Positions 4,994 through 53,347 of a stretch of DNA of 64,000 bases are shown in pieces. Position 1 is the stretch's first letter. Each line of letters begins with the position of its first letter. This DNA is from Candidatus Doudnabacteria bacterium (lineage in GTDB: Bacteria > Patescibacteriota > Doudnabacteria > UBA920): contig CAWINB010000004.1 of the NCBI GenBank assembly GCA_963837465.1, forward strand, positions 138,853-202,852, read 5' to 3'. Position numbers and translations under genes: made by a program. Below the pieces are notes generated by a model that made no database searches, had not been told where the DNA came from, and worked only from the letters and a program-made list of their open reading frames with translations.

Positions 4994-5221
4994 TTGAAAT
5001 TAATTTTTATGGATCCCTCAACCCCAGCCAACCTGCTTATTTCCGGCATCTATTACATCTTAACCGGACTGACAACTTTTTTTTCCATGTTTGGCGTTTA
5101 TATTTTGATCCGCTACGGCAGGACCAAATCCCTGGCTTTTTCCATTGCCATAATTTACGCCATATTTTTTTTAAAAATCCTGGCCGAAAGCTACGGAACA
5201 CTTCACGCATTGGTGTCCTAA
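4994..5221 (+). CDS. small hydrophobic protein (2 predicted TM helices), hypothetical
   Basis: 75 aa ORF with two hydrophobic stretches; no homology recognised; alternative frame overlaps a long ORF whose 5' part looks non-coding. Confidence 0.3.
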   Translation: MKLIFMDPSTPANLLISGIYYILTGLTTFFSMFGVYILIRYGRTKSLAFSIAIIYAIFFLKILAESYGTLHALVS

Positions 5222-5268
5222 ATTTTTGTCATTTTTATTATTTTTGCTCATTTTTGTCATTACTCTCT

Positions 5269-5847: not shown

Positions 5848-5883
5848 ATTTCCGCCAGAGGCGGATCCGCCTCTGGCGGAAAT
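5848..5883. repeat. perfect 36 bp palindrome centred on GGATCC (copy 1 of 2)
   Basis: atttccgccagaggcgga|tccgcctctggcggaaat; the left half is the exact reverse complement of the right half; second near-identical copy at 43111-43146. Confidence 0.9.
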
Positions 5884-6424: not shown

Positions 6425-6586
6425 GGGCCTGTTGCCAAATGGGCTTTTGAGGTAAAAATTAAGAATTTTGAGGCAGTCGGTCAAAACAAATTTTGACGTT
6501 TAACTTTTAGTTAAGCTGATAAATTTTTTTGGTCGAATGACCAAAATTATGAATTTTTAACCAAAATGACATTTGGCAACAGGCCC
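6425..6586. repeat. structured leader element A bounded by a 17 bp perfect inverted repeat
   Basis: gggcctgttgccaaatg (6425-6441) and catttggcaacaggccc (6570-6586) flank a ~110 nt core homologous to 6860-7000; the 3' arm ends 5 nt before the ATG at 6592. Confidence 0.7.
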
Positions 6587-6591
6587 TTTAT

Positions 6592-6822
6592 ATGAAACCT
6601 TTTGCTTGGGACCAAAATAAAAACAATCTGCTTAAAACCACAAGAGGGGTAGGTTTTGAAGATGTCAGGACAGCGATTTTAGATAAAAAGGTTCTTGATG
6701 ACTTCCCTAATCCCCACCCCGGCAGATACCCGGGCCAGAGAATGACCGTAGTAGAAATTAATAACTACGCCTATTTAATCCCTTATGTTGAAAACGAGAA
6801 TATAATTTTTTTAAAACAATAA
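6592..6822 (+). CDS. BrnT-like toxin (DUF497), short form
   Basis: 76 aa; FAWDQNKNN...GVGFEDV...NIIFLK resembles the BrnT/DUF497 N-terminal and core blocks; C-terminus shorter than copy 1. Confidence 0.5.
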   Translation: MKPFAWDQNKNNLLKTTRGVGFEDVRTAILDKKVLDDFPNPHPGRYPGQRMTVVEINNYAYLIPYVENENIIFLKQ

Positions 6823-6859: not shown

Positions 6860-7000
6860 ATGTTTAAAAAGTGCTTTGAAGGCGAAATTTCAGAATTTTG
6901 AGTGGATTGGCAGAAATAATTTTTGACGTTTAGCCTAAAGCTAAGCGGATAAAATTTTTCTGACAAGACGCCAAAATTATGAAATTGCGGCCCAAATGAC
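6860..7000. repeat. structured leader element B (paralog of element A)
   Basis: ~75 percent identity to 6455-6575; conserved blocks gaattttgag, tttgacgttta, ccaaaattatgaa, aaatgac. Confidence 0.7.
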
Positions 7001-7035
7001 TTTTTAAACAGCTTCTAAGGAAAGGAGAATAATAT

Positions 7036-7407
7036 ATGGATCCTAAATACAAAAAAACTGATTTCGGTTACGAACTCGACGACTACGAAGCGGAGCTTGA
7101 GGAAGCTTTTGACAAAGGCGAGTTTAAACGTGCGCCCGATTTTGAGGAACAGAAAAGAAAGCTCATGGCTGCGGCCAGGGCAACTATGGAAAAAACAAAA
7201 AATATCAACATTCGCATTTCACAAGGCGATCTTTTTGATATCCAAGACAAAGCAAGGGAGCAGGGCATCCCTTACCAAACCCTAATATCTTCACTCATCC
7301 ACCAATATTCCAGAAATAAAATAGACTATAACGTTTTAAGGGAACCCGGCAAACCCTACCGGACTTTTACCCCAAAACCGGCCAAAACCAAAAAGAGCGG
7401 CAAATAG
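7036..7407 (+). CDS. BrnA-like antitoxin (CopG/RHH-like)
   Basis: 123 aa; NINIRISQGDLFDIQDKAREQGIPYQTLISSLIHQY matches the BrnA C-terminal block; paralog of brnA at 2159-2437; RBS aaaggag upstream. Confidence 0.6.
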   Translation: MDPKYKKTDFGYELDDYEAELEEAFDKGEFKRAPDFEEQKRKLMAAARATMEKTKNINIRISQGDLFDIQDKAREQGIPYQTLISSLIHQYSRNKIDYNVLREPGKPYRTFTPKPAKTKKSGK

Positions 7408-11749: not shown

Positions 11750-12475
11750 ATGAAATTTGTCAAAGTTAAAACCCGCGCCTTGTTGCCGCCGAAAGATGAT
11801 ATTTTTGGGGTGGTTGATAAATACCTGCCCAAACTCAAAGAAGGCGATGTTTTGCTCATCGCGTCCAAGATTTTAGCAATCCATCAGGGAAGATGCGTTA
11901 GAATTGAAAGCATAAAAAAATCCGCTCTGGTAAAAAAAGAGGCGGATTTTAGTTTGCCGGGAAATATGGTGGCGGGAGCGGAAATTATTTTGACCATAAA
12001 AGATTACACTTTAATTCCTTCCGCCGGAATTGATGAAAGCAACGGCAACGACTACTATATTTTATGGCCAAAAAATACAAATCGTCTTTGTAAGGATATT
12101 TGCGACTATTTAAAAAGGAAACATAAAATAAAAAGACTGGCGGTTGTGGCGACCGACAGCCACACTACTCCTTTACGCTGGGGCACGCAGGGCGTATCAA
12201 TCGGATTTTTTGGTTTGGAGCCATTGTATGATTACCGCGGCAAAAATGATATTTTTGGCCGCAAATTAAAATATACCCAAAGCAACATTGTAGACGCGCT
12301 TTCGGTTACCGCCGTACTTTTAATGGGCGAAGGAGCGGAAAAAACACCAATGGTAATCTGCCGCGGCGCGGAATTTGTAAACTTCACCACCAAGCACACC
12401 CATAAAAAATTGGTGATTGAGCCGAAAAAGGATTTGTATTATCCGCTACTAAGACAATTTAAAAGATTTAAATAA
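11750..12475 (+). CDS. CofE-like gamma-glutamyl ligase family protein (F420-0:gamma-glutamyl ligase homolog)
   Basis: 241 aa; blocks IPSAGIDESNG, LAVVATDSHTTPLRWGTQGVSIGFFG typical of the F420_ligase/CofE fold. Confidence 0.55.
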   Translation: MKFVKVKTRALLPPKDDIFGVVDKYLPKLKEGDVLLIASKILAIHQGRCVRIESIKKSALVKKEADFSLPGNMVAGAEIILTIKDYTLIPSAGIDESNGNDYYILWPKNTNRLCKDICDYLKRKHKIKRLAVVATDSHTTPLRWGTQGVSIGFFGLEPLYDYRGKNDIFGRKLKYTQSNIVDALSVTAVLLMGEGAEKTPMVICRGAEFVNFTTKHTHKKLVIEPKKDLYYPLLRQFKRFK

Positions 12476-12512
12476 TTGACCAAAATTGACATAATTTAAC
12501 CGCAACCCATTC

Positions 12513-14847: not shown

Positions 14848-15618
14848 ATGGCGGAAAATAATTTTGAATTACAAAAAGCGCTGCTTTCTTTAAATTTCAG
14901 TGAAAAAGAAGCAAATGTTTATTTGGCCCTTTTGGAATTGGGCCAGGGTAGCGTGTCGGAAATCGCGAGGAAGTCCAATATTAACCGGACACACGGGTAT
15001 AATGTGCTGGCCGCGCTTTCTTCGAGAGGATTGGTCAGTATTTCCGGCAAGGAGCCGAAGCAGGAATATGTGGCGGAGTCGCCGGATAAGATTAAAGATA
15101 TGCTTAGGGCGGAAATTAAAAAAAATGAGGGATTTTTAAAACAGGCTGACAATGTAATCCCTAAATTAAAATCCATCCGAACCGTCCGCGGCCGCCCTCA
15201 AGTACGGTTTTACGAAGGCAAAGAGGGATTGAAACAAATTTACGAAGACACACTAACTTCCCACGAAACAATTTTAGCCTATGCCAGCGTGGAAGATACG
15301 CAAAGTACCCTACCGGACTTTTTTCCAAGTTATTATTTTAGACGCGCCGACAAAAATATTCATATTCGGGCGGTGTTTCCTGACACTGCCGAAGCCCGCA
15401 AACTGGTTAAATCCAATAAAATCCAAAAAAGGGAAACGGTATTAGTACCGTCCCAAAAATATTCCTTTTCCCCGGAAATAAATATTTACGACAACAAAGT
15501 TATGATAGCATCGTGGCGGGAAAAGCTTGGTATAACCATAGAAAGCCATGAAATATCCGATGCCATGAAAAAAATATTTGAGTTGGCGTGGATTGGTGCT
15601 AAAAGTTTAGAAAAATAG
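14848..15618 (+). CDS. TrmB-family transcriptional regulator (paralog 1)
   Basis: 256 aa; N-terminal winged-helix EANVYLALLELGQGSVSEIA; C-terminal sugar-binding-like domain; close paralog of 17442-18239. Confidence 0.8.
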   Translation: MAENNFELQKALLSLNFSEKEANVYLALLELGQGSVSEIARKSNINRTHGYNVLAALSSRGLVSISGKEPKQEYVAESPDKIKDMLRAEIKKNEGFLKQADNVIPKLKSIRTVRGRPQVRFYEGKEGLKQIYEDTLTSHETILAYASVEDTQSTLPDFFPSYYFRRADKNIHIRAVFPDTAEARKLVKSNKIQKRETVLVPSQKYSFSPEINIYDNKVMIASWREKLGITIESHEISDAMKKIFELAWIGAKSLEK

Positions 15619-17441: not shown

Positions 17442-18239
17442 ATGATCAAAACCGATTCACCTCTATATAAAGGTTTAATTTTAATTGGCTTTTCGCAAAA
17501 AGAAGCCAGTGTGTATTTGGCTTTGCTGGAATTGGGCAAACGGACCGTTTCTCCAATTGCTCGGTCAGCCAATATTAACCGAACCACGGTTTACGATATT
17601 TTGGCTTCGTTAATAGCAAAAGGCTTGGTAAGCGTTTCGGGAAAAGAACCACTGCAAGAGTACGTGGCGGAGTCGCCGGAAAAAGTTTTAAGGCTAATAC
17701 AAAAGGAAGTGGAAGACAAACAAGAAAATTTAAAAATAGCAGGGGAGTTAGTTCCCCAGCTTAAATCTATTTATAATGTTTCAGATAGGCCCAAGGTAAG
17801 GTTTTACGAAGGCAAAGAAGGGCTTCAGCAAGTTTATGAAGATACTTTAACTTCCCACGAAACAATTTTGGCTTATGCCAACGTAAAAGAAATGCATAGC
17901 GCTTTACCGGATTATTTTCCCAAATATTACAAACGCAGGACTAACCACGGAGTGCGCATACGCGCGATCGTTCCATCAAATAAAGAGGGAGCCGAACGGA
18001 CCAGCAAAGACAATGAAGAAGCGCGCGAGTCCGCCCTTGTCCCTGAAGATAAAGTCTACTTCTCTCCCGAAATTAACATTTATGACAATAAGGTTATGAT
18101 TGCGTCATGGAAGGAAAAACTGGGAATCATTATAGAAAGCAAAGAAATATCGGACGCGATGAAAACTATTTATGAATTAGCCTGGAGCGAAGCCAAAAGA
18201 TTAGAAAAAAGCTTACCAGCTATTGCAAAAATTCCTTAG
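17442..18239 (+). CDS. TrmB-family transcriptional regulator (paralog 2)
   Basis: 265 aa; long identical blocks with paralog 1 (VRFYEGKEGL.QVYEDTLTSHETILAYA, FSPEINIYDNKVMIASW). Confidence 0.8.
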   Translation: MIKTDSPLYKGLILIGFSQKEASVYLALLELGKRTVSPIARSANINRTTVYDILASLIAKGLVSVSGKEPLQEYVAESPEKVLRLIQKEVEDKQENLKIAGELVPQLKSIYNVSDRPKVRFYEGKEGLQQVYEDTLTSHETILAYANVKEMHSALPDYFPKYYKRRTNHGVRIRAIVPSNKEGAERTSKDNEEARESALVPEDKVYFSPEINIYDNKVMIASWKEKLGIIIESKEISDAMKTIYELAWSEAKRLEKSLPAIAKIP

Positions 18240-18575: not shown

Positions 18576-18854
18576 ATGGATCAAGACGATATCAAAACTT
18601 TGTTTGACGACAAATACAAAAAACTGCTTGGCCAGTCCTACGAGGAATGGTCGGAAAACGGCCCGCAAAACGAAACCGAAGCCTACGCGCGCCTGCAGGA
18701 AATTGACGACGAGTTAAGGGAAAGCCACGACGAATGGTATGAAGCCGAAGGCGATAAAAAAGAAGAGCTGGAAGAATACCGCGACAAGCTGAAAGCGGAA
18801 TATGATTTCATAGAAGCGGCTTTTGGGCTGGAGGCTCCGGATAAGAATTGGTAG
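18576..18854 (+). CDS. small acidic hypothetical protein
   Basis: 92 aa, strongly acidic, predicted helical; followed by a terminator. Confidence 0.45.
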   Translation: MDQDDIKTLFDDKYKKLLGQSYEEWSENGPQNETEAYARLQEIDDELRESHDEWYEAEGDKKEELEEYRDKLKAEYDFIEAAFGLEAPDKNW

Positions 18855-18889
18855 GTTAGTGACAAAAATGACATAATTGACAAAATTGA

Positions 18890-18936
18890 ACAAAATTTAG
18901 CTCCGGGGCTTTAGCTAAATTTTGTCAATTTTTTAA
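18890..18936 (+). terminator. intrinsic terminator embedded in a TGACAAAAT repeat array
   Basis: stem acaaaatttagct / agctaaattttgt with loop ccggggcttt then T-rich run. Confidence 0.6.
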
Positions 18937-18963
18937 ATCTTTTAAATTTTGTTCAATTAATTC

Positions 18964-19629
18964 ATGCTTTACGTAGTAGCGACGCCAATTGGTAATTTAG
19001 AAGATATAACTTTAAGGGCAATAAGCTCCCTAAAAAGTTGTGATTTTGTAATTGCCGAAAATCCGCTTTATTCCAAAAGGCTGATGGAGCATATCGGGGC
19101 GTGGCCAAAAGAAATGGTGCAGTTTGCCGAATTTAACGAACAGCAAATTGTAAAAGATTTAACCAGGCGGCTGGCAAAATCCGACGGGTGTTTTATAACC
19201 AATGCCGGCACGCCCGGAATTTCCGATCCTGGTTTTCGCCTGGTAAGGGAGTGCGTAAAAGAAAATGTCGCTGTAGTCCCAATCCCCGGCGCCAGCGCCG
19301 CCATTGCCGCTCTTTCCGCTTCCGGATTGCCAACAGATAAATTTTTATTTTTGGGATTTTTACAAAAGACCGCGGCCAAAACCGTGAGCGCGCTGCAAAG
19401 CGCGGCGGACGCGGAAGCCACGGCAATTTTTTACGAATCACCGGAGCGGATTTTAAAAACTTTAAATTACATTAGCAACGCTTTTCCAACCAGCCAAATC
19501 GTCGCCGCCCGCGAACTAACCAAACTGCATGAAGAATTCATCCGCGGCACGCCAATGCAGGTAATAGACTCGCTTAAAGACAGGGCTTCTATAAAGGGCG
19601 AGTTTACTATACTAGTATCATTTAAATAA
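18964..19629 (+). CDS. rsmI: 16S rRNA 2'-O-methyltransferase RsmI-like (tetrapyrrole methylase fold)
   Basis: 221 aa; MLYVVATPIGNLEDITLRA...ENPL N-terminal signature of RsmI. Confidence 0.8.
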   Translation: MLYVVATPIGNLEDITLRAISSLKSCDFVIAENPLYSKRLMEHIGAWPKEMVQFAEFNEQQIVKDLTRRLAKSDGCFITNAGTPGISDPGFRLVRECVKENVAVVPIPGASAAIAALSASGLPTDKFLFLGFLQKTAAKTVSALQSAADAEATAIFYESPERILKTLNYISNAFPTSQIVAARELTKLHEEFIRGTPMQVIDSLKDRASIKGEFTILVSFK

Positions 19630-19660
19630 TTGACCATAATTGTCAAAATTGACATAATTT

Positions 19661-19978
19661 ATGGACCACTTCGAGTTACAAAAACGAACCAAAATATTTG
19701 CAGTCAGAATAATTAAGTTAGTTAAGTCTCTACAAGGCGATCCTATTGGAAAAATTATCGGCAATTATCAATTACTCCGATCCGGAACAGCGATCGCCGC
19801 TAATTATAGGGCCGCTTGTAGATGCAAGTCGTCAAAGGATTTTGTATCTAAGATCGGTACTGTGGTAGAAGAGGCCGATGAAACCCAATTCTGGCTGGAA
19901 ATCTTAGTTGAGTCAGATGTAGTTAAAATTGATTTAATCAAAGATTTATTAAAAGAAGCTGGTGAAACACTGCGATAA
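19661..19978 (+). CDS. four-helix-bundle protein (23S rRNA intervening-sequence protein family)
   Basis: 105 aa; block TAIAANYRAACRCKSSKDFVSKIGTVVEEADETQFWLEIL matches the conserved core of this family. Confidence 0.65.
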   Translation: MDHFELQKRTKIFAVRIIKLVKSLQGDPIGKIIGNYQLLRSGTAIAANYRAACRCKSSKDFVSKIGTVVEEADETQFWLEILVESDVVKIDLIKDLLKEAGETLR

Positions 19979-20068
19979 TGACTGCGTCCAAAGCGACAGC
20001 AGTAAAAAATTTGGGCAGAAAATAATTATGTCATTTTTGTCAATTTTTTAAATTTTGTTCAATATTTT

Positions 20069-20785
20069 ATGTCCGGGCATTCCAAATGGTCACAAATTAA
20101 AAGAACCAAGGGCGTCCTTGACCAGAAACGGGGACTTTTGTTTTCCAAATTGGGCAAAAAAATTTCCATTGCCGTTAAAGAAGGCGGCAGTGGGGATCCG
20201 GCTGCTAATTTTAAATTAAAAAGCGCGGTTGAGTATGCCAAGGCCCAGGGTATGCCCAATGATAATATAGACAGGGCCATAAAAGCCGGGAGCGGGGAAG
20301 CCGCGGGTAATATTAAAGAGGTTATTTACGAAGGCTACGGCCCGTTTGGCACGGCATTTTTGGTGGAAGCCGCGACAGATAACAGCAACCGGACTTTTAA
20401 CAACATCCGCAAAATTTTTAACGAGCATAACGGCAGTATTGGCGCGCGGGGCAGCGTAGCCTGGCAGTTTAATACTAAAGGCCAAATTTTGGTGGAGCGG
20501 GACAGTAACATCGAAAATTTAGAAATGGCGGCGATTGACGCGGGCGCCCAAGATGTTCGCGAGTCAGCGGAGGGTTTGGAAGTTTATACCCAAGCCCAGG
20601 ATTTACAAAAAATAAAAGAAGCTCTGGCAAAAGCCGGCGCCAAAATCGCGCAGGCGGACATTATTAAAGAATCATCACAAGGTACGGATTTGGCCGAACG
20701 GCAAAAACCGAAAGTTGAGGCTTTGTTCGCGGCGCTTGAGAACGATGAAGACGTTATCGCGGTTCACACATCAGCAAATCTTTAA
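20069..20785 (+). CDS. yebC: YebC/PmpR-family DNA-binding regulator
   Basis: 238 aa; MSGHSKWSQIKRTKG N-terminus diagnostic of the YebC family. Confidence 0.9.
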   Translation: MSGHSKWSQIKRTKGVLDQKRGLLFSKLGKKISIAVKEGGSGDPAANFKLKSAVEYAKAQGMPNDNIDRAIKAGSGEAAGNIKEVIYEGYGPFGTAFLVEAATDNSNRTFNNIRKIFNEHNGSIGARGSVAWQFNTKGQILVERDSNIENLEMAAIDAGAQDVRESAEGLEVYTQAQDLQKIKEALAKAGAKIAQADIIKESSQGTDLAERQKPKVEALFAALENDEDVIAVHTSANL

Positions 20786-26228: not shown

Positions 26229-26342
26229 GGACTAATGACAAAAACGGCAATCTTTTAAATTTATCATAGTTGTCATCCCGAGTGCATCCGACTTGTCCGC
26301 CGTAGCCTTGGCGAAGGCAGAGGGATCCCTCGCTTCGTTTGG

Positions 26343-26366
26343 GACGGCATTAATGCCGTTTTTGTC
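26343..26366 (+). terminator. intrinsic terminator
   Basis: acggca-ttaa-tgccgt then TTTTTG. Confidence 0.45.
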
Positions 26367-26388
26367 AATTTTGTCATTTTTTTAATTT

Positions 26389-27609
26389 TTGTCATTACTA
26401 TTTATGGATTACCTCCTGCTTCTAACCTTCATCCTTGCCCCGGCCTACGTTATCAGGTTCAATTTCCTGGGTTTTCCCACGGATGTTTTGATGATGTGGA
26501 TATTTTTTGTCTGGTTGGTTTTCTACGGCTGGCTTATTGCGAAAAAAAGATTGGGTGAATTTTTCCGCTTTAAGGAACTTTTGGACCGGAAAGTTTCCGT
26601 CTGGGTCGGCTTATTTTTCCTGTCCGGGATTATTGCGTTACTGGTTGAACATCCAAACAGAGCCAACCTTGGCCAATTCATAGTTTTGTTCTTACAACCA
26701 ATCAGCCTGTTTTTTATCGCGGGTTTTATATTTAAGCAAAGCCCCAAAACCAAGTCCTGGCTACTTGCTACCAGCTACTCGCTACTGGCAATATCCGGTC
26801 TATACGCCATACTCCAGTACTTTACCCTAATCGGGCTGCCCGTAGCCTGGTGGGGCAACAGCGTAGAGCCCAAGCGGGCTTTGGCGTTTTTTGTCCATCC
26901 AAATTTTTACGCGCTATGGTGCGCGCCTTTGCTGGCTCTGCTACTACCGGACATAGGAACCAAGATCAAATCGTGGTCAGCCGTAAATCGTAAATCGTTA
27001 ATGGTTAATCGTTCCTCAGCCCTGGCCTGGCTGCTTGGAGCCATCGGATTATTGCTTTCTTTGTCCCGCTCCGGCTGGCTGGGCTTGTCCGCCGCTATTG
27101 TTGTCTACGTAATAATAGCCGCCGACGCCAAAGTCCGTAAAATTATTTTTGCGCTTGCCGTTGCCGCGGTTTTAATAGTAGCCGCCGTCCCCAACCTGCG
27201 CTGGCGGGTGTTGCTGCCGTTTTACGGGGAAAAGTCAGCCGACTCCAGAATTGAACTGTGGGACGATGGCTTTAAAGGCATAAAACAGTCGCCAATTTTT
27301 GGCATAGGACTCACCGGTTTTGCAAAAGAATACGCCACAATTAATATCGACCCCACTTTAGACCCACACAATTTTCCGCACAACATCTTTTTGGATTTCT
27401 GGGTGGAAACCGGACTGCTTGGCTTAATCAGTTTTGTAGGCCTAGCCTCCCTATTTATTTACCGCGGCCTAAAAAACCGCGGCAATCTCTTTGCCCTTGC
27501 CGTCTCCCTATTCCTAATAGCCCTACTAGCCCAAGGCCAAGTCGACAACCCCTACTTTAAAAACGATTTGGCTTTGGTGTTTTGGATGGTGCTGGCTTTA
27601 GTAATATAA
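26389..27609 (+). CDS. O-antigen ligase / Wzy-family polytopic membrane protein
   Basis: 406 aa, ~10 TM helices; periplasmic loop LSLSRSGWLGLSAAI typical of the Wzy_C domain. Confidence 0.7.
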   Translation: MSLLFMDYLLLLTFILAPAYVIRFNFLGFPTDVLMMWIFFVWLVFYGWLIAKKRLGEFFRFKELLDRKVSVWVGLFFLSGIIALLVEHPNRANLGQFIVLFLQPISLFFIAGFIFKQSPKTKSWLLATSYSLLAISGLYAILQYFTLIGLPVAWWGNSVEPKRALAFFVHPNFYALWCAPLLALLLPDIGTKIKSWSAVNRKSLMVNRSSALAWLLGAIGLLLSLSRSGWLGLSAAIVVYVIIAADAKVRKIIFALAVAAVLIVAAVPNLRWRVLLPFYGEKSADSRIELWDDGFKGIKQSPIFGIGLTGFAKEYATINIDPTLDPHNFPHNIFLDFWVETGLLGLISFVGLASLFIYRGLKNRGNLFALAVSLFLIALLAQGQVDNPYFKNDLALVFWMVLALVI

Positions 27610-28797: not shown

Positions 28798-29529
28798 ATG
28801 GAAATTAGTTTAAAAAACCTGTTTAAAGAACTCGGGGTTAACGATGAACAAGCTAAGGTTTATTTGGCGGCTTTGGAGTTGGGACAGGCCAATATGAATG
28901 AGTTGGCTGAAAAGGCCGGGTTAAAAAGAACCAGTGTTTATAATTATGTAGATGAACTTATAGAAAAAAAGTTAATAACTACCGGTAAAAAAAGAAAGCG
29001 CACGGTTTATAGCGCCATTCATCCAAATATGCTTATGGAAATAGAAAAAGCCCGGCTCAGCGAGCTAGAAAGAAATCTGCCGGAACTTTTAGCTGTTTAT
29101 AACAAATCAAAAACCAAACCTAAAGTAACTTTTTATGAAGGCATAAACGGTATAAAAACTGTTTTACAGGATATGCTAAAAGAAAAACAAACAATATCCG
29201 CATTCAGCGATTTTAAACATATGGCCGCGGTATTCGGTGATTATTACTTTGATGTTTTTCCGCCTGAACGGGCCAAGCGGGGGATTGTTTCCCGCAACAT
29301 TGTTCCAGACACGCCAAAAGCCCGTGAGCTGGCAAAAAAAGACGCCCGATATTTGCGCCAAACAAAATTTTTACAAATTCCCGACTTAAAAACTGAAATA
29401 AATATTTACGCCAACAAAGTTGCTCTTAACAGCTACCAAAGTAGTCCGCCCTTTGGAGTAATTATTGAAGATCATGACATAGCGGAAACCCTACGCGCTG
29501 TCTGGCAACAGCTTTGGAATAGAATTTAA
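28798..29529 (+). CDS. TrmB-family transcriptional regulator (paralog 3)
   Basis: 243 aa; same architecture as the other TrmB paralogs (QAKVYLAALELGQANMNELA winged helix; C-terminal EINIYANKVAL). Confidence 0.75.
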   Translation: MEISLKNLFKELGVNDEQAKVYLAALELGQANMNELAEKAGLKRTSVYNYVDELIEKKLITTGKKRKRTVYSAIHPNMLMEIEKARLSELERNLPELLAVYNKSKTKPKVTFYEGINGIKTVLQDMLKEKQTISAFSDFKHMAAVFGDYYFDVFPPERAKRGIVSRNIVPDTPKARELAKKDARYLRQTKFLQIPDLKTEINIYANKVALNSYQSSPPFGVIIEDHDIAETLRAVWQQLWNRI

Positions 29530-29953: not shown

Positions 29954-30028
29954 GTTAATATCGCAAGGCCAAGTCGACAATCCTTACTTTAAAAATGATT
30001 TAGCGCTGGTATTTTGGATAGTTCCATC
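29954..30028 (+). pseudogene. duplicated 3'-terminal fragment of the O-antigen ligase gene (att-like direct repeat)
   Basis: ~80 percent identical over 75 nt to 27532-27609 (17-mer caaggccaagtcgacaa identical); encodes QGQVDNPYFKNDLALVFW like the end of the ligase. Confidence 0.7.
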
Positions 30029-32164: not shown

Positions 32165-32505
32165 CTTATTTTATTTAAAAGCTGTAAAAAGTAGCTTAGC
32201 CTGTCAGCTTCGGGCAAACGCGAGACTTTTGGCTTGGCCATAATCATATAGTCGCCTTTTTTAAAATCTCCCATATTCTTGCGTAAATTTTCCCTGATTA
32301 TCCTCTTTAAGCGGTTTCTGGCCACCGCCGCTTTAAAGACTTTTGTTGAAACCACAACAGCAAAACGGGGAGACCCGGACGCCGAGGCCAAAAACTTGAT
32401 ATTGTAAAAAGGGTTAAAAAAAGTCCGCCCTCTGGCAAACGCAGTTTGAATGTCTTTGTCTTTGGCCAGGCGGTTTTTTTTGTGAAGCATAGCGAGAAAT
32501 GACAA
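32161..32505 (-). CDS. rnpA: ribonuclease P protein component
   Basis: 114 aa, basic; ARNRLKRIIRE motif; located between rpmH and yidD. Confidence 0.8.
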   Translation of the reverse strand: MSFLAMLHKKNRLAKDKDIQTAFARGRTFFNPFYNIKFLASASGSPRFAVVVSTKVFKAAVARNRLKRIIRENLRKNMGDFKKGDYMIMAKPKVSRLPEADRLSYFLQLLNKIR

Positions 32506-32596
32506 AAGTTAAAAAAATAATAAAAATGACAAAAATATCTGTTCCCACATTTTTTTAACTTTTATTATTTTTGCTCATTTTTGTCATGTCCTTAGG

Positions 32597-42682: not shown

Positions 42683-42768
42683 TGGTGCCCGGGAGAGGAA
42701 TCGAACCTCCATGTCCTTGCGGACGCTGCCACCTCAAGGCAGTGCGGCTGCCGTTACGCCACCCGGGC
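42683..42768 (-). tRNA. tRNA-Leu (anticodon GAG), type II with long variable arm, CCA encoded
   Basis: minus-strand GCCCGGGTGGCG...; anticodon stem-loop CTGCC-TTGAGGT-GGCAG; long variable arm; T-arm GGTTCGATTCC; 3' CCCGGGC-A-CCA. Confidence 0.85.
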
Positions 42769-42891
42769 TAAAATTAAATTAACTTATCAATTATAGCTAA
42801 AGAGGGCTTTATTTTCAAGTGGAGGGTCGTCTCGGTGTAGTTGCCCGATTTATCGGGCTTTGAGGCTCAATAAATTGAGCAACTACAAGCT

Positions 42892-43866
42892 TTGTTTCAA
42901 TGGTATCTCTTTACAAAATTCCCAAAACCCGCCAAACTTATAGATATGTTACTGGAAATTCCAAAAAATTTTTCGGACTTTGAGTTGATAGACACCGGCG
43001 ATGGTTACAGGCTGGAGCGCTGGGGGCAGGTTATTTTGGCGCGGCCGGATCCGCAAATTATTTGGCCACGATCACTACCGAGCGACCAGTGGAATTCCGC
43101 CTGGGCGGTTTTTTCCGCCGGAGGCGGATCCGCCTTTGGCGGAAAAAATAAAGCCGCCGGAGAAAAAGGCCGATGGGAAATAAAAAAACCAATGCCAAAC
43201 CCTTGGATTGTAAATTTTGATGATGTGAAATTTTTACTCAAGCTCTCTCCGTTTAAGCATACGGGCTTGTTCGCGGAGCAGGCCGCCCAATGGGAGTGGA
43301 TGTCGTTAAGGATAAAAGATTCCTCCTTCACTAAAGTTTCGGCGGACAAGAAAGGATTAAGGATACTAAACCTCTTTGCTTACACCGGCGGCGCGACAAT
43401 GGTTTTGGCCAAGGCCGGCTGGCGTGTTACGCATGTGGATGCTTCCAAGCCGGCTATAACCTGGGCCAATGAAAATCATAAATTAAATAACTTGCCGGCT
43501 GACTCTGTCCGCTGGATTTTGGACGACGCGGCAAAATTTGTCGGCCGGGAACTAAAAAGAGGTGCCAAGTATGATGCCATAATTATGGATCCTCCCGCTT
43601 TTGGTCATTCGCCCACAGGCAAGATTTGGAAATTTAACAATGACCTGCCGGGCTTGCTTGCCGACTGCGTTTCCCTGCTGTCGCCCGAAGCTAAATTTTT
43701 AATCATCAACGGCTACGCCACAAATTCCTCGGCCTTGTCTTTAAATAATTTATTGGAAGATGTAATTGCCGCCAAAGACGGTAAGATAGAATTTGGTGAG
43801 TTATGCCTAAAGCAACAATCCGAACGAATGATATCAACCGGAATATTCACCCGATGGAGTATTTAG
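42892..43866 (+). CDS. class I SAM-dependent rRNA methyltransferase (RlmI/RlmK-like)
   Basis: 324 aa; SAM-binding block NLFAYTGGATMVLAKAGWRVTHVDASK; IIMDPPAFG motif; contains an in-frame palindromic insertion (see repeat 43111-43146). Confidence 0.75.
   Translation: MFQWYLFTKFPKPAKLIDMLLEIPKNFSDFELIDTGDGYRLERWGQVILARPDPQIIWPRSLPSDQWNSAWAVFSAGGGSAFGGKNKAAGEKGRWEIKKPMPNPWIVNFDDVKFLLKLSPFKHTGLFAEQAAQWEWMSLRIKDSSFTKVSADKKGLRILNLFAYTGGATMVLAKAGWRVTHVDASKPAITWANENHKLNNLPADSVRWILDDAAKFVGRELKRGAKYDAIIMDPPAFGHSPTGKIWKFNNDLPGLLADCVSLLSPEAKFLIINGYATNSSALSLNNLLEDVIAAKDGKIEFGELCLKQQSERMISTGIFTRWSI
43111..43146. repeat. 36 bp GGATCC-centred palindrome (copy 2 of 2), inside the methyltransferase CDS
   Basis: ttttccgccggaggcgga|tccgcctttggcggaaaa; 32/36 identical to the 5848-5883 copy; encodes the Gly-rich segment FSAGGGSAFGGK in frame. 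Confidence 0.85.
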
Positions 43867-44628: not shown

Positions 44629-45405
44629 TTAGCTTTTAATTTTTTCGGCCGGACAAAAATCCCAAATTAGGTTAAACCAGGTGCGGAAGGTATCGGCTAA
44701 TTGAGGATGCTTCATTACAAAAATAGTTACGTTCTCGCCGACGTTGCCAATATCCACGCTGGTAAAGGTAACTATGTAATCGCCGAACATATCGGTTACT
44801 CCGGGTGTGGGATATTTTTTTGGCAAAATTTTGTATTCGCCTCCGACATTCTTGATCGCTTCGGGGATGCGTTCTTTTACGCGGTAATCGTAAAGTGTAA
44901 AATATTTTTTGTTTTTACGCTTCATTGCGGCCTGAAAATCTTCCAGGTACTGTCTGTCTATGCTGGGCGTGAACCACAAAGCTTTGGCGCCTAAAAAATA
45001 AGTGTCTTCGGCCACACGAGTCATATCGCGCATATAATTTTTATAACCTTCCAGACCTTTATAAATGTAAGCCGCTTCTTGTAAAGGTGTGCTTTGGTAA
45101 AGTTTGTTTAAGTCCGGTAAAATTTGGAATAATTTTTTTTCCTTTTCTTCCAAAACCTCGGCAAGTTTGTTAGGCGTAACGGCCCTGAATTGGTTCTCCC
45201 CTTTTTGGAAAATCCGAAAAACCAATCCTTTTTCTATAAGCCGGTTTAAAGCATCATAAACATTCCGCCTATGCACATTGGCCTTAAGCGAAATATCCGA
45301 AACCCCGACTTCCCCGGCAGAAAGCAAAGTCTCATAAATCTTAGCCTCATTAGGACTAAGCCCAATTTCCTCAAAAACCTCTGTGTACATAAAGTTCGGT
45401 GTCAT
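44629..45405 (-). CDS. TrmB-family transcriptional regulator (paralog 4)
   Basis: 258 aa; NEAKIYETLLSAGEVGVSDIS winged helix plus TrmB-like C-terminal domain; true start may be the second Met. Confidence 0.75.
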   Translation of the reverse strand: MTPNFMYTEVFEEIGLSPNEAKIYETLLSAGEVGVSDISLKANVHRRNVYDALNRLIEKGLVFRIFQKGENQFRAVTPNKLAEVLEEKEKKLFQILPDLNKLYQSTPLQEAAYIYKGLEGYKNYMRDMTRVAEDTYFLGAKALWFTPSIDRQYLEDFQAAMKRKNKKYFTLYDYRVKERIPEAIKNVGGEYKILPKKYPTPGVTDMFGDYIVTFTSVDIGNVGENVTIFVMKHPQLADTFRTWFNLIWDFCPAEKIKS

Positions 45406-45620
45406 TGCGAGGAGGCCAGGGCTTTGGCTAACCGACGCGGCAATCTTTTTACACGATAAGATTGCTTCGGCTGCACTCGCAATGACTTATAATTAAGCCT
45501 GTTTTATATAATGGTGCTAACAATCACCCTATGGTGCTCTTGGCCACTCATAAAATATATCTTATGCTATTTGGTCACCATTGTCAAGCAAACGGCTTGG
45601 TAGGTGCGGGAGGAGGATGC

Positions 45621-49811: not shown

Positions 49812-49873
49812 AAATACTAATGAGCAAAAATGACAAAATTGACATAAATGAACAAAAATAATCGCACTTTAGT

Positions 49874-53194: not shown

Positions 53195-53347
53195 AAATCT
53201 ATTTTTCTGGATCCCGGATATTTTTACAGCCCTTCCGCCTTCGCTAAAGCTACGGCGGATGCGCCGGAAAATTCCGGGATGGGAGTTGTGCCGTAGTTTA
53301 CCGATAAATCCAGCTTCACCAAAGTTTCGTCTGACACGGTCGGCGCG

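What the first reader, a model, noticed from the sequence alone, without database searches (positions are those of the whole stretch)
43111..43146. Palindromic element inserted in-frame within an rRNA methyltransferase gene (RPE-like)
The second copy of the 36 bp GGATCC palindrome lies inside the RlmI-like CDS. It is translated as the Gly-rich loop FSAGGGSAFGGK without breaking the frame. In-frame palindromic insertions are known from Rickettsia palindromic elements, and this may be an analogous mobile palindrome.
Basis: partly seen in the sequence, partly recalled or inferred. Interest (0 to 1): 0.6.

Follow-up and report, generated by a model that had tools for sequence, protein, structure and literature searches.

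The report
Tiny double-hairpin repeat inserted in-frame
A 30-base GC-rich "double mini-hairpin" repeat sits in-frame inside a methyltransferase gene, adding ten harmless amino acids to a surface loop; the same tiny element turns up in many uncultured bacterial phyla, often inside essential genes, and I found no published description of it.

Summary
Window 43111-43146 is a 36-nt near-palindrome read in-frame as FSAGGGSAFGGK in a PF10672 (RlmI-like) methyltransferase. A perfect sister copy lies between genes at 5848-5883.

Most orthologues lack the segment. Removing exactly 30 nt (43114-43143, SAGGGSAFGG) restores their loop length, and the flanking F and K codons pre-exist. The insert sits in a disordered surface loop.

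The element is two head-to-head 15-nt mini-hairpins (T-CCGCC-NNN-GGCGG-A). Covariation supports the two local hairpins, not one long hairpin.

A half-anchored scan filled 120 metagenome loci. The core is almost absent from viral contigs and absent from plasmid and phage records.

About a third of copies lie deep inside ORFs. Of these, 55 of 65 use the one frame that encodes SAxGGSAxGG. Hosts include RpoB, RpoC, DnaE, DnaG and UvrB. In Doudnabacteria RpoB it is present or absent at three or more sites. Clean events are exactly 30 nt with no target duplication.

Best reading: a non-autonomous dispersed palindromic repeat. It is functionally analogous to Rickettsia RPEs and intragenic REPs but belongs to neither family. 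How it is mobilised is unknown.

The parts
43114..43143 (.). The inserted element proper: 30 nt, TCCGCCGGAGGCGGA|TCCGCCTTTGGCGGA, translated S75-A-G-G-G-S-A-F-G-G84.
   Evidence: Removing these 30 nt gives F-KNKAAGEK-GRW, the 8-residue loop length of most orthologues. Clean 30-nt insertions with the same ends occur in RpoB of P0159 and P0185.
43114..43128 (.). Mini-hairpin unit 1: 6-bp stem T-CCGCC/GGCGG-A with the purine loop GGA.
   Evidence: The loop consensus of unit 1 is nRA. Local-hairpin covariation is shown.
43129..43143 (.). Mini-hairpin unit 2: stem T-CCGCC/GGCGG-A with the pyrimidine loop TTT.
   Evidence: The loop consensus of unit 2 is TYn. P0191 carries a single unit of this type alone at an RpoB site.
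43111..43113 (+). Left flank TTT (F74): pre-existing host codon and preferred T-rich target side.
   Evidence: F/Y is conserved at this position in orthologues without the insert. T is enriched at -1, -3 and -4 in both coding and non-coding copies, with no signal beyond 4 nt.
43144..43146 (+). Right flank AAA (K85): pre-existing host codon and preferred A-rich target side.
   Evidence: K is the commonest residue right after F in orthologues without the insert (AIFKS). A is enriched at +1, +3 and +4.
42946..43866 (+). Host gene: SAM-dependent methyltransferase (PF10672, RlmI-like, 2IGT family). The likely start is M19 (MLLEIPKNF). The mechanical ORF starts at 42892.
   Evidence: Pfam PF10672 scores 49 bits against a cut-off of 27. 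PDB 2IGT matches at E=7e-61. Orthologues start at MLLE. In the AF2 model the insert is in a loop with pLDDT below 50 (residues 78-90) between strands 72-75 and 94-97.
5851..5880 (.). Sister copy of the element, intergenic: TCCGCCAGAGGCGGA|TCCGCCTCTGGCGGA. With its flanks (5848..5883) it forms a perfect 36-nt palindrome.
   Evidence: It lies 34 nt after the stop of the bPH_2 membrane protein gene (ends 5817) and 14 nt before the ATG of the cytidylyltransferase gene (5894). It is not scored as terminator- or promoter-like.

Best explanation
The feature is one copy of a very small dispersed repeat. The element is 30 nt long and made of two head-to-head 15-nt mini-hairpins (T-CCGCC-nRA-GGCGG-A, then T-CCGCC-TYn-GGCGG-A). 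It was inserted precisely, with no target-site duplication, between a T-rich and an A-rich codon (TTT|AAA) in a surface beta-hairpin loop of an RlmI-like methyltransferase.

Shown: the element has no stop codon in any frame on either strand, so it is read through. In this frame, which is the same on both strands, it encodes the flexible peptide S-A-x-G-G-S-A-x-G-G, and that is why the gene survives.

Shown: insertion relative to orthologues; membership of a widespread repeat family; one-frame bias inside ORFs; conservation of the two local hairpins through compensatory changes.

Inferred: the element is non-autonomous selfish DNA. Its copying depends on the mini-hairpins being recognised in single-stranded DNA or RNA, either by an unidentified trans-acting enzyme (an IS200/IS605- or RAYT-like HUH transposase is the obvious candidate class) or by hairpin-promoted template switching. 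Selection then removes copies that land in harmful frames or sites.
For: Insertion: 8 versus 18 loop residues relative to most of 42 orthologues. 2IGT is 9 residues shorter there. Excising 30 nt restores the loop length and the F|K junction. The loop is disordered in the AF2 model.

Repeat family: 2 copies in the window against 0 expected. 137 double units at exactly 15-nt spacing against 0 in shuffled sequence.

Reading frame: 39 of 42 and 16 of 23 copies deep inside ORFs are in the SAxGGSAxGG frame, where one third is expected. The TCAGCC/GGCTGA variant, which creates a TGA in that frame, is never inside an ORF (0 of 11). Hosts are real housekeeping genes such as RpoB, RpoC, DnaE, DnaG, UvrB, Mfd, PheT, CysS and Asx-tRNA synthetases.

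Presence/absence: Doudnabacteria RpoB orthologues 82-91% identical carry the element at three or more different sites. There are clean 30-nt events without target duplication, and one 15-nt single unit.

Hairpins: with one unit fixed, 27 of 87 non-canonical partner units are perfectly self-complementary variants, where about 0.1 is expected by chance. The two-hairpin model gives 97.7% of cells paired and 43 double-sided changes against 4.4 in shuffles (0 of 500). The one-long-hairpin model shows no covariation.
Against: No mobilising enzyme was found. No gene family recurs near the copies.

No pair of near-identical genomes with a filled and an empty site was obtained, so mobility rests on orthologues at most about 91% identical.

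RpoB site A is not a clean event (net +24 nt).

Copy number per genome looks low: 2 in 64 kb here, and no more than about 4 per MAG in the truncated lists. That is unlike REP or MITE bursts.

Stem third-codon positions are more conserved than host synonymous sites (7 of 8 against 38%, P about 0.006). This could mean selection on the hairpin in place, i.e. a host function, and not selfish copying.

The cross-phylum spread of one 30-mer is not explained. Viral contigs, plasmids and phages almost never carry it.

The alignment used was pre-filtered for at least 4 of 5 local pairs.
Confidence: 0.75

Rival explanations
1. The double mini-hairpin is a host-beneficial structural signal, such as an mRNA-stabilising or RNase-processing hairpin, a protein-binding DNA palindrome or a cruciform. 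On this reading it is kept by selection where it sits and is not selfish DNA.
For: Compensatory changes keep each hairpin. Stems inside RpoB are more conserved than synonymous sites. The same sequence persists across phyla. The intergenic copy sits 14 nt upstream of a start codon. The loop types (nRA then TYn) and the order of the units are nearly invariant.
Against: Copies sit at unrelated positions: inside ORFs at different sites in orthologues, at C-terminal tails, and between genes. There is no consistent distance or orientation to genes. G.T/A.C asymmetries are not consistent by strand, which argues against a strand-specific RNA. There is no Rfam match. The copies are not terminator-like: an A-run, not a T-run, follows on both strands. 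Most orthologues do well without it.
Confidence: 0.15
2. No dedicated enzyme exists. Copies arise by replication template switching or gene conversion. A nascent strand ending in a T-run pairs with another copy's T-run, copies the stable hairpins, and returns at the A-run (microhomology-mediated templated insertion).
For: There is no target-site duplication, and flanks are always a T-run and an A-run limited to about 4 nt. There is no linked transposase. Copy number is low. Forms with one, two or more units (P0191, L026) suggest slippage. At RpoB site A, the GGAAAA at the element's right end (GGA AAA) resembles the GG(C/G) AA(G/A) (G-K) codons present at that position in the empty alleles.
Against: It does not explain why heterodimers of different stem variants are so common, why only one unit order occurs (about 95% or more), or how the element reaches different phyla. 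The left flank is AAG or GTG, not a T-run, in the clean RpoB events.
Confidence: 0.2
3. The segment is a local accident: a chance Gly-rich loop expansion, or an assembly, adapter or sequencing artefact in the MAG, and not a real genetic element.
For: All hits are MAGs or metagenome contigs and none is a cultured isolate, plasmid or phage record. The methyltransferase loop is hypervariable and carries other repeat expansions in other orthologues. Protein P0001 is known from a single contig.
Against: The same 28-30 nt recurs in hundreds of independent assemblies, including Mb-scale contigs of the MFD series. The strong reading-frame bias cannot be an artefact. RpoB orthologues from different samples share the insert but differ at loop and wobble positions. 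Both sides of the insert belong to the same gene, and the frame is kept.
Confidence: 0.02

Closest known systems
Rickettsia palindromic elements (RPE-1 to RPE-8)
   Same: Palindromic dispersed repeats inserted into pre-existing ORFs without breaking the frame. They sit in tolerated, surface positions of housekeeping proteins, including DNA polymerase III alpha and PheT (PMC3767692). Here the hosts include DnaE (L054) and PheT (L015).
   Different: RPEs are 100-150 bp and specific to Rickettsia and Wolbachia (PMC3767692). This element is 30 nt, GC-rich, made of two 15-nt mini-hairpins, and found in many phyla. RPE sequences end in CGTC (PMC3733652); this element does not.
REP sequences / REPINs mobilised by RAYT transposases
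   Same: Short GC-rich palindromic units that commonly occur as inverted doublets thought to be the replicating entity (PMC3116915). Some REPs lie inside genes, often replication and repair genes (PMC3733652). Hairpins in single-stranded DNA are the recognised feature.
   Different: REPs carry a terminal GTAG or CGTC tag (PMC3733652); here GTAG is in 0 of 165 copies and CGTC is at background. [quoted passage not shown] They are described as mostly vertically inherited within lineages (abstract of bioRxiv 10.1101/2022.05.22.493013, seen). Here about one third of copies are inside ORFs, copy number looks low, the same sequence spans phyla, and no RAYT was seen nearby. The covariation here supports the two local hairpins, not a hairpin formed by the doublet as a whole.
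Mitochondrial GC clusters (yeast GC42), double-hairpin elements (Allomyces), repetitive hairpin-forming elements (sponges)
   Same: Very short GC-rich hairpin-forming mobile repeats. Substitutions concentrate in the loops, which points to structural constraint (PMC4478555). Clusters merge and shuffle as modules (PMC4478555), which resembles the heterodimers seen here. The double-hairpin architecture is as I recall it from Paquin et al. 2000, which I did not read here.
   Different: Those are organellar, mostly intergenic, and GC42 has a duplicated AG target (PMC4478555). This element is bacterial, shows no target duplication, and is often translated in-frame.
Bacterial MITEs that create in-frame fusions (e.g. 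Coxiella QMITE)
   Same: Non-autonomous repeats that sometimes lie in-frame in ORFs or supply C-terminal residues (PMC5896051). Compare the RpoB tail copies and L120.
   Different: MITEs are typically 100 bp or more, with terminal inverted repeats and target-site duplications derived from an insertion sequence (my general knowledge, plus PMC10969869 from its abstract only). Neither a duplication nor a parent IS was found here.

Membership tests
Rickettsia palindromic elements (RPE) | Repeat unit of 100-150 bp homologous to an RPE consensus | tested here: not met
   The element is 30 nt. RPE length is taken from PMC3767692. No alignment to RPE consensus sequences was run, because the lengths are incompatible.
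Rickettsia palindromic elements (RPE) | Inserted in pre-existing ORFs without breaking the frame, at tolerated positions | tested here: met
Rickettsia palindromic elements (RPE) | Restricted to Rickettsia/Wolbachia genomes | tested here: not met
   Hosts are Patescibacteria, Omnitrophota, PVC phyla, Ignavibacteriota, Chloroflexota and others.
REP / REPIN | Imperfect palindromic unit of 20-60 bp | tested here: met
   15-nt units and a 30-nt doublet; 36 nt with flanks.
REP / REPIN | Conserved GTAG (or CGTC) tetranucleotide at one end | tested here: not met
   GTAG/CTAC within 8 nt of either end in 0 of 165 copies. CGTC in 4 and GACG in 3, which is background. The flank consensus is tTnT ... AnAa.
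REP / REPIN | Predominantly extragenic | tested here: not met
   42 of 125 and 23 of 69 copies have at least 60 open codons on both sides. Pfam confirms that 18 of the 20 host ORFs tested are known protein families.
REP / REPIN | Inverted doublet that folds as one hairpin and is the replicating unit | tested here: inconclusive
   Doublets dominate (137 at 15-nt spacing against 0 in shuffles). Covariation supports two local hairpins, not the single long one.
REP / REPIN | Cognate RAYT (IS200/IS605-type Y1 transposase) in the genome, flanked by the repeats | not testable with these tools
   No recurrent neighbour family was found within 8-kb loci. Whole genomes could not be scanned.
MITE | Target-site duplication flanking terminal inverted repeats | tested here: not met
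   Clean 30-nt events have different bases on the two sides (GTG|AAA, AAG|AAA, TTT|AAA) and no duplicated bases.
MITE | Ends match those of an autonomous insertion sequence | not tested
   No full-length parent was seen. The Kiritimatiellae composite repeat carries the element together with other hairpin repeats but has no ORF.
Intrinsic (Rho-independent) terminator | GC-rich hairpin followed by a T-run on the transcribed strand | tested here: not met
   A T-run precedes and an A-run follows on both strands. Neither window copy is called terminator-like.
Known structured RNA family (Rfam 15) | Match to a curated covariance model at gathering score | tested here: not met
   0 matches in the whole window.
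Host gene: RlmI-like SAM-dependent methyltransferase (PF10672) | Pfam PF10672 domain above the curated cut-off | tested here: met
   49 bits against a cut-off of 27. 2IGT at E=7e-61 and RlmI/YccW 3C0K at E=1e-11 over the methyltransferase domain only. The RNA target was not tested.

The most novel reading that the evidence does not exclude
This is a previously undescribed class of ultra-small (30-nt) modular 'double mini-hairpin' element. It moves horizontally among very distant bacterial phyla and is copied by an unknown hairpin-recognising machinery without target duplication. Its hairpins are kept under selection even inside essential genes such as rpoB, rpoC and dnaE. That would make it one of the smallest mobile or self-propagating DNA elements known (a comparison made from memory, not checked here), and possibly one with a host-level role.
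Probability: 0.35. Interest if true: 0.8.

Novelty: new variant of a known kind. Interest (0 to 1): 0.62.

Why it matters
In-frame palindromic 'selfish DNA' has been a curiosity of Rickettsia and a few REP families. This window suggests a much smaller element does the same thing across Patescibacteria and at least nine other named lineages, including inside RNA polymerase and replication genes.

If that holds, four things follow:
- Many 'lineage-specific insertions' in proteins of uncultured bacteria would be repeat insertions, not adaptations.
- The peptide SAxGGSAxGG and the 30-mer become practical markers for annotation and for detecting horizontal exchange between co-occurring phyla.
- The element is a compact substrate for finding a new hairpin-specific DNA-processing enzyme.
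- It shows directly how selection on the reading frame filters insertions of mobile DNA.

Tried and rejected
1. Strand-specific RNA hairpin tolerating G.U pairs. The asymmetric positions within a copy point to different strands as often as to the same one (37 mixed against 29 consistent).
2. One long 16-18-bp hairpin as the conserved structure. The window copies can fold that way, but there is no covariation, and variant copies fold only as two hairpins.
3. Known RNA family. Rfam gives no match.
4. Terminator or promoter. Neither is called.
5. Linked transposase or any recurrent neighbour. None found; the shared families are Mur ligase, response regulator, M23 peptidase and similar.
6. Phage or plasmid vector. 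2 hits in 2.9 M viral contigs and none in PLSDB plasmids or GenBank phages.
7. A larger parent element. The Kiritimatiellae/Verrucomicrobia shared context is a composite of several hairpin repeats and has no ORF.
8. GTAG/CGTC tags. Absent.
9. Published description. Literal-sequence and keyword searches returned only cloning primers and papers on analogous elements.
10. Exact insert boundaries from PDB homologues. They are too distant: RpoB shows a gap of 8 and the methyltransferase a gap of 9.
11. A census of the 868-kb source genome. This was not possible.

Full report
**Observation.** The sequence at 43111-43146 is TTTTCCGCCGGAGGCGGATCCGCCTTTGGCGGAAAA. It lies in ORF 42892-43866 on the + strand and is translated in frame as F74-SAGGGSAFGG-K85. 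It is a near-palindrome: 2 of its 18 symmetric pairs are G.T. A sister copy, ATTTCCGCCAGAGGCGGATCCGCCTCTGGCGGAAAT at 5848-5883, is a perfect palindrome. It lies between a bPH_2-domain membrane protein gene (ends 5817) and a cytidylyltransferase gene (starts 5894). No shuffle of the window gives a match to the 36-mer, and the 12-nt core occurs 3 times against 0.15 expected.

**Host gene and the insertion test.** The ORF is a SAM-dependent methyltransferase: Pfam PF10672 at 49 bits against a cut-off of 27. Its best solved relative is 2IGT (E=7e-61), and RlmI/YccW matches only over the methyltransferase domain. Homologues are 62-75% identical and come from Patescibacteria, many labelled Doudnabacteria. 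The exact protein is on an 868-kb contig.

In an alignment of 43 sequences, most orthologues have 8 residues between the conserved F and GRW (AIFKS-GSSEEK-GRW). The window protein has 18. Removing exactly 30 nt (43114-43143, SAGGGSAFGG) leaves F-KNKAAGEK-GRW, which is the usual length. It also rejoins an F|K junction that many orthologues have. So the insert is 30 nt, and the TTT and AAA flanks are host sequence. 2IGT is 9 residues shorter at this point.

An AlphaFold2 model (mean pLDDT 78) puts the insert in a loop with pLDDT below 50 (residues 78-90) between strands 72-75 and 94-97. The loop is hypervariable in general. Some orthologues carry CGCGGAA direct-repeat expansions there, and P0043 carries a different palindromic in-frame insert elsewhere in the gene.

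**A widespread family.** All are MAGs. About two-thirds are Patescibacteria of many classes. The rest include Omnitrophota, Kiritimatiellae, Verrucomicrobia, Lentisphaerae, Planctomycetes, Ignavibacteriota (on 1.6-Mb contigs), Chloroflexota, a Desulfotomaculaceae MAG, Margulisiibacteriota, Auribacterota, Firestonebacteria and 'uncultured Gammaproteobacteria'. Many lie on contigs longer than 100 kb, which makes gross mis-binning unlikely. Host GC content ranges from 30% to 70%. The element is nearly absent from IMG/VR (2 contigs) and absent from PLSDB plasmids and GenBank phages.

The consensus is t-T-n-T CCGCC nRA GGCGG AT CCGCC TYn GGCGG A-n-A-a. There is no signal beyond 4 nt on either side. 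The flank signal is the same in coding and non-coding copies. The unit with the purine loop precedes the unit with the pyrimidine loop in about 95% or more of copies. That fixed order argues for common descent of the copies.

**Structure.** The two window copies can fold as one long hairpin, but the family does not conserve that fold. The loop triplets do not covary, and the G.T/A.C asymmetries do not agree on a strand.

Of 137 matches, the partner was:
- canonical in 50;
- a different but perfectly self-complementary stem in 27 (TCAGCC/GGCTGA, TCTGCC/GGCAGA, TGCGCC/GGCGCA and others), where about 0.1 of 87 is expected by chance;
- paired through a G.T in 3;
- one mismatch short in 18;
- absent in 39 (single units).

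On the alignment of 96 doublets, the two-hairpin model gives 97.7% of cells paired and 43 cells changed on both sides, against 4.4 +/- 1.9 in shuffles (0 of 500). The long-hairpin model gives 84.7% paired, equal to the shuffles, and no excess covariation. One caveat applies: rows were kept only if unit 1 had at least 4 of 5 local pairs, so the percentage paired is inflated. The count of 27 out of 87 does not depend on that filter.

The unit is therefore a 15-nt mini-hairpin with a 6-bp stem and a 3-nt loop. The usual element is a head-to-head pair, and heterodimers of different stem types are common.

**Coding context.** Of 125 canonical copies, 42 have at least 60 open codons on both sides, and 39 of those are in the frame that reads SAxGGSAxGG. 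Because the element is a palindrome, that frame is the same on both strands. In the independent metagenome sample the count is 16 of 23, with 7 in the PPxADPPxAE frame and none in the Arg-rich frame. The TCAGCC variant, which has a TGA in the favoured frame, is never inside an ORF (0 of 11). In coding copies the right loop favours TCN (Ser).

Pfam identifies 18 of the 20 host ORFs tested. They include RpoC, RpoB, DnaE, HsdR, PheT, ArsA, Mfd, UvrB, DnaG, PolX, the E2 acyltransferase, GH57, AroA, two Asx/Lys-tRNA synthetases, CysS, a solute-binding protein and a C-terminal protease. No gene family recurs near the copies, and none of the few shared neighbours is a transposase.

**Presence and absence among orthologues.** I compared 82 Doudnabacteria RpoB proteins that are 80-100% identical to the L100 copy.
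- *Site A.* P0121 and P0125, from different samples, carry the element. P0127 carries a stem variant, TCCGGC-AAA-GCCGGA TCCGGC-TCC-GCCGGA.
- *Site B.* P0159 has a clean 30-nt insert between GTG and AAA, TCCCGC-GGA-GCGGGA TCCGCC-TCT-GGCGGA, in which the stem of unit 1 is changed in a compensatory way. P0191 has only one 15-nt unit at the same place.
- *Site C, the Lys-rich C-terminal tail.* P0185 has a clean 30-nt insert between AAG and AAA. P0144 has a heterodimer. Six further proteins have diverged relatives.

None of the clean events shows a target-site duplication. Site A is not clean (net +24 nt).

Between P0121 and P0125, third positions of conserved four-fold-type codons are only 38% identical across the gene. 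In the stem codons of the element, 7 of 8 are identical (P about 0.006). Either the hairpin is under selection where it sits, or the copies were acquired or homogenised more recently than the genes diverged.

**Interpretation.** The best-supported reading is a non-autonomous dispersed palindromic repeat that is tolerated in ORFs. It contains no stop codon in any frame, and in one frame it encodes a flexible Ser/Ala/Gly linker. Selection then leaves copies mainly in that frame and in loops or tails.

The conserved local hairpins imply that propagation, or a function, depends on folding in single-stranded nucleic acid. The enzyme class that does this in known systems is the HUH/Y1 transposases of IS200/IS605 and RAYTs (PMC6006769, PMC3116915), but none was found here. 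Hairpin-promoted template switching at the T-run and A-run is a live alternative. A host function for the hairpins cannot be excluded, but the scattered positions argue against one. Artefact and chance are excluded.

**Comparison with known elements.** The element behaves like Rickettsia RPEs, which also insert in-frame in housekeeping genes (PMC3767692). It also resembles the minority of REPs found inside genes (PMC3733652). It fails the defining tests of both families: it is 30 nt and not 100-150 bp, it has no GTAG or CGTC tag, it is not predominantly extragenic, and it is not lineage-restricted. It lacks the target duplication of MITEs.

Structurally it most resembles mitochondrial GC clusters and double-hairpin elements (PMC4478555), but those are organellar. 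Seven literature searches, including literal sequence strings, found no description of it. The library does not cover most subscription journals.

**Verdict.** I class the element as a new variant of a known kind (in-frame palindromic repeats). Its unusual features are the very small size, the modular double mini-hairpin, the absence of a target duplication and the cross-phylum distribution.

Noticed in passing
window 42836-42887: A 52-nt extended imperfect hairpin (GUAGUUGC...GCAACUAC closing an inner AU-rich stem) lies just upstream of the methyltransferase start and downstream of the divergent tRNA-Leu promoter-like site. Folded on 42826-42892 it gives MFE -26.8 kcal/mol, z = -4.4, with 0 of 200 shuffles as stable. 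Its function is unknown.
   Followed up: partly
window 45401-45488: An intergenic palindromic element of about 88 nt: GTCATTGCGAGGAGG...CGGCAATCTT ... AAGATTGCTTCGG...CTCGCAATGAC. Read on one strand it gives the spurious 'CHCEEARALANRRGNL' ORF listed at 45271-45459. From memory, this resembles GTCATTGCGAG-type hairpin repeats seen in many environmental bacteria. A related motif (gtcattccgagcg...cgaggaatctc) sits next to the 30-mer in Kiritimatiellae loci L003, L006 and L052.
   Followed up: no
window 26274-26324 and 53231-53281: A 51-nt inverted pair, 73% complementary, containing GCTACGGCGGA(C/T). It is another GC-rich dispersed motif. A similar GGCGGACAAG string lies in the second variable loop of the methyltransferase (about 43340-43352, ...KVSADKK...), and many copies of the 30-mer are followed by ACAA.
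   Followed up: no
window 5216-5260, 12447-12498, 18848-18965, 19601-19661, 20018-20071, 26359-26405, 32488-32587, 49818-49872: AT-rich intergenic arrays with 9-nt periodicity built on TTGACAAAA / TTTTGTCAA (repeat families D1, D2, D6, D7). They look like stacked -35-like hexamers. A similar string (AGTGACAAGTTAAAA, twice) is translated in-frame in the methyltransferase orthologue P0006 (L130).
   Followed up: no
L128, L129, L130 (orthologues P0043, P0003, P0006), same loop as the window insert: Other methyltransferase orthologues carry 3-4 direct copies of CGCGGAA at this loop, read alternately as R-G and A-E. P0043 also has a GC-rich 'SAQGYGG' segment nested inside it, and a separate 72-nt in-frame insert after LERWG containing the arms CCCTGCAC...GTGCAGGG. 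The loop therefore collects several kinds of repeat.
   Followed up: partly
RpoB alignment of P0121-P0202, alignment columns 519-566: About half of the Doudnabacteria RpoB orthologues have a roughly 47-residue lineage-specific segment (KSAVGQ...ALGMIRI) that the others lack. It is unrelated to the palindrome.
   Followed up: no
L003 4485, L006 4588 and 6409, L052 7326 (one Kiritimatiellae MAG); L028 676 (Verrucomicrobia): Here the 30-mer is embedded in a longer shared context (cataggaatttt[element]acaatccgt...). In the Kiritimatiellae MAG this continues for about 150 nt through other hairpin repeats. It is a composite repeat present in at least 3 near-identical copies.
   Followed up: partly
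window 6425-6586 and 6437-6574 vs 6867-7004: A 138-nt direct repeat (71% identity) and a 44-nt inverted repeat flank two small ORFs (6592-6822 and 7036-7407) that look like a toxin-antitoxin-type pair. The repeat precedes each gene.
   Followed up: no
window 14906-15501, 17500-18095, 28847-29421; also 27524-27590 vs 29956-30022: Several direct repeats with constant offsets (2594 nt and 2432 nt), 76-96% identical over short stretches. They point to tandem paralogous genes in this region.
   Followed up: no
L120 391-418 (IMG/VR contig): In one of only two viral contigs with the element, it supplies the last residues of an ORF of more than 480 codons (...FVSALGGSASGGK, then stop). This parallels the RpoB C-terminal tail copies.
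   Followed up: no
window 42683-42768: ARAGORN calls a tRNA-Leu(GAG) on the minus strand, but the Rfam gathering-threshold scan of the whole window returned no match at all, not even to the tRNA model.
   Followed up: no
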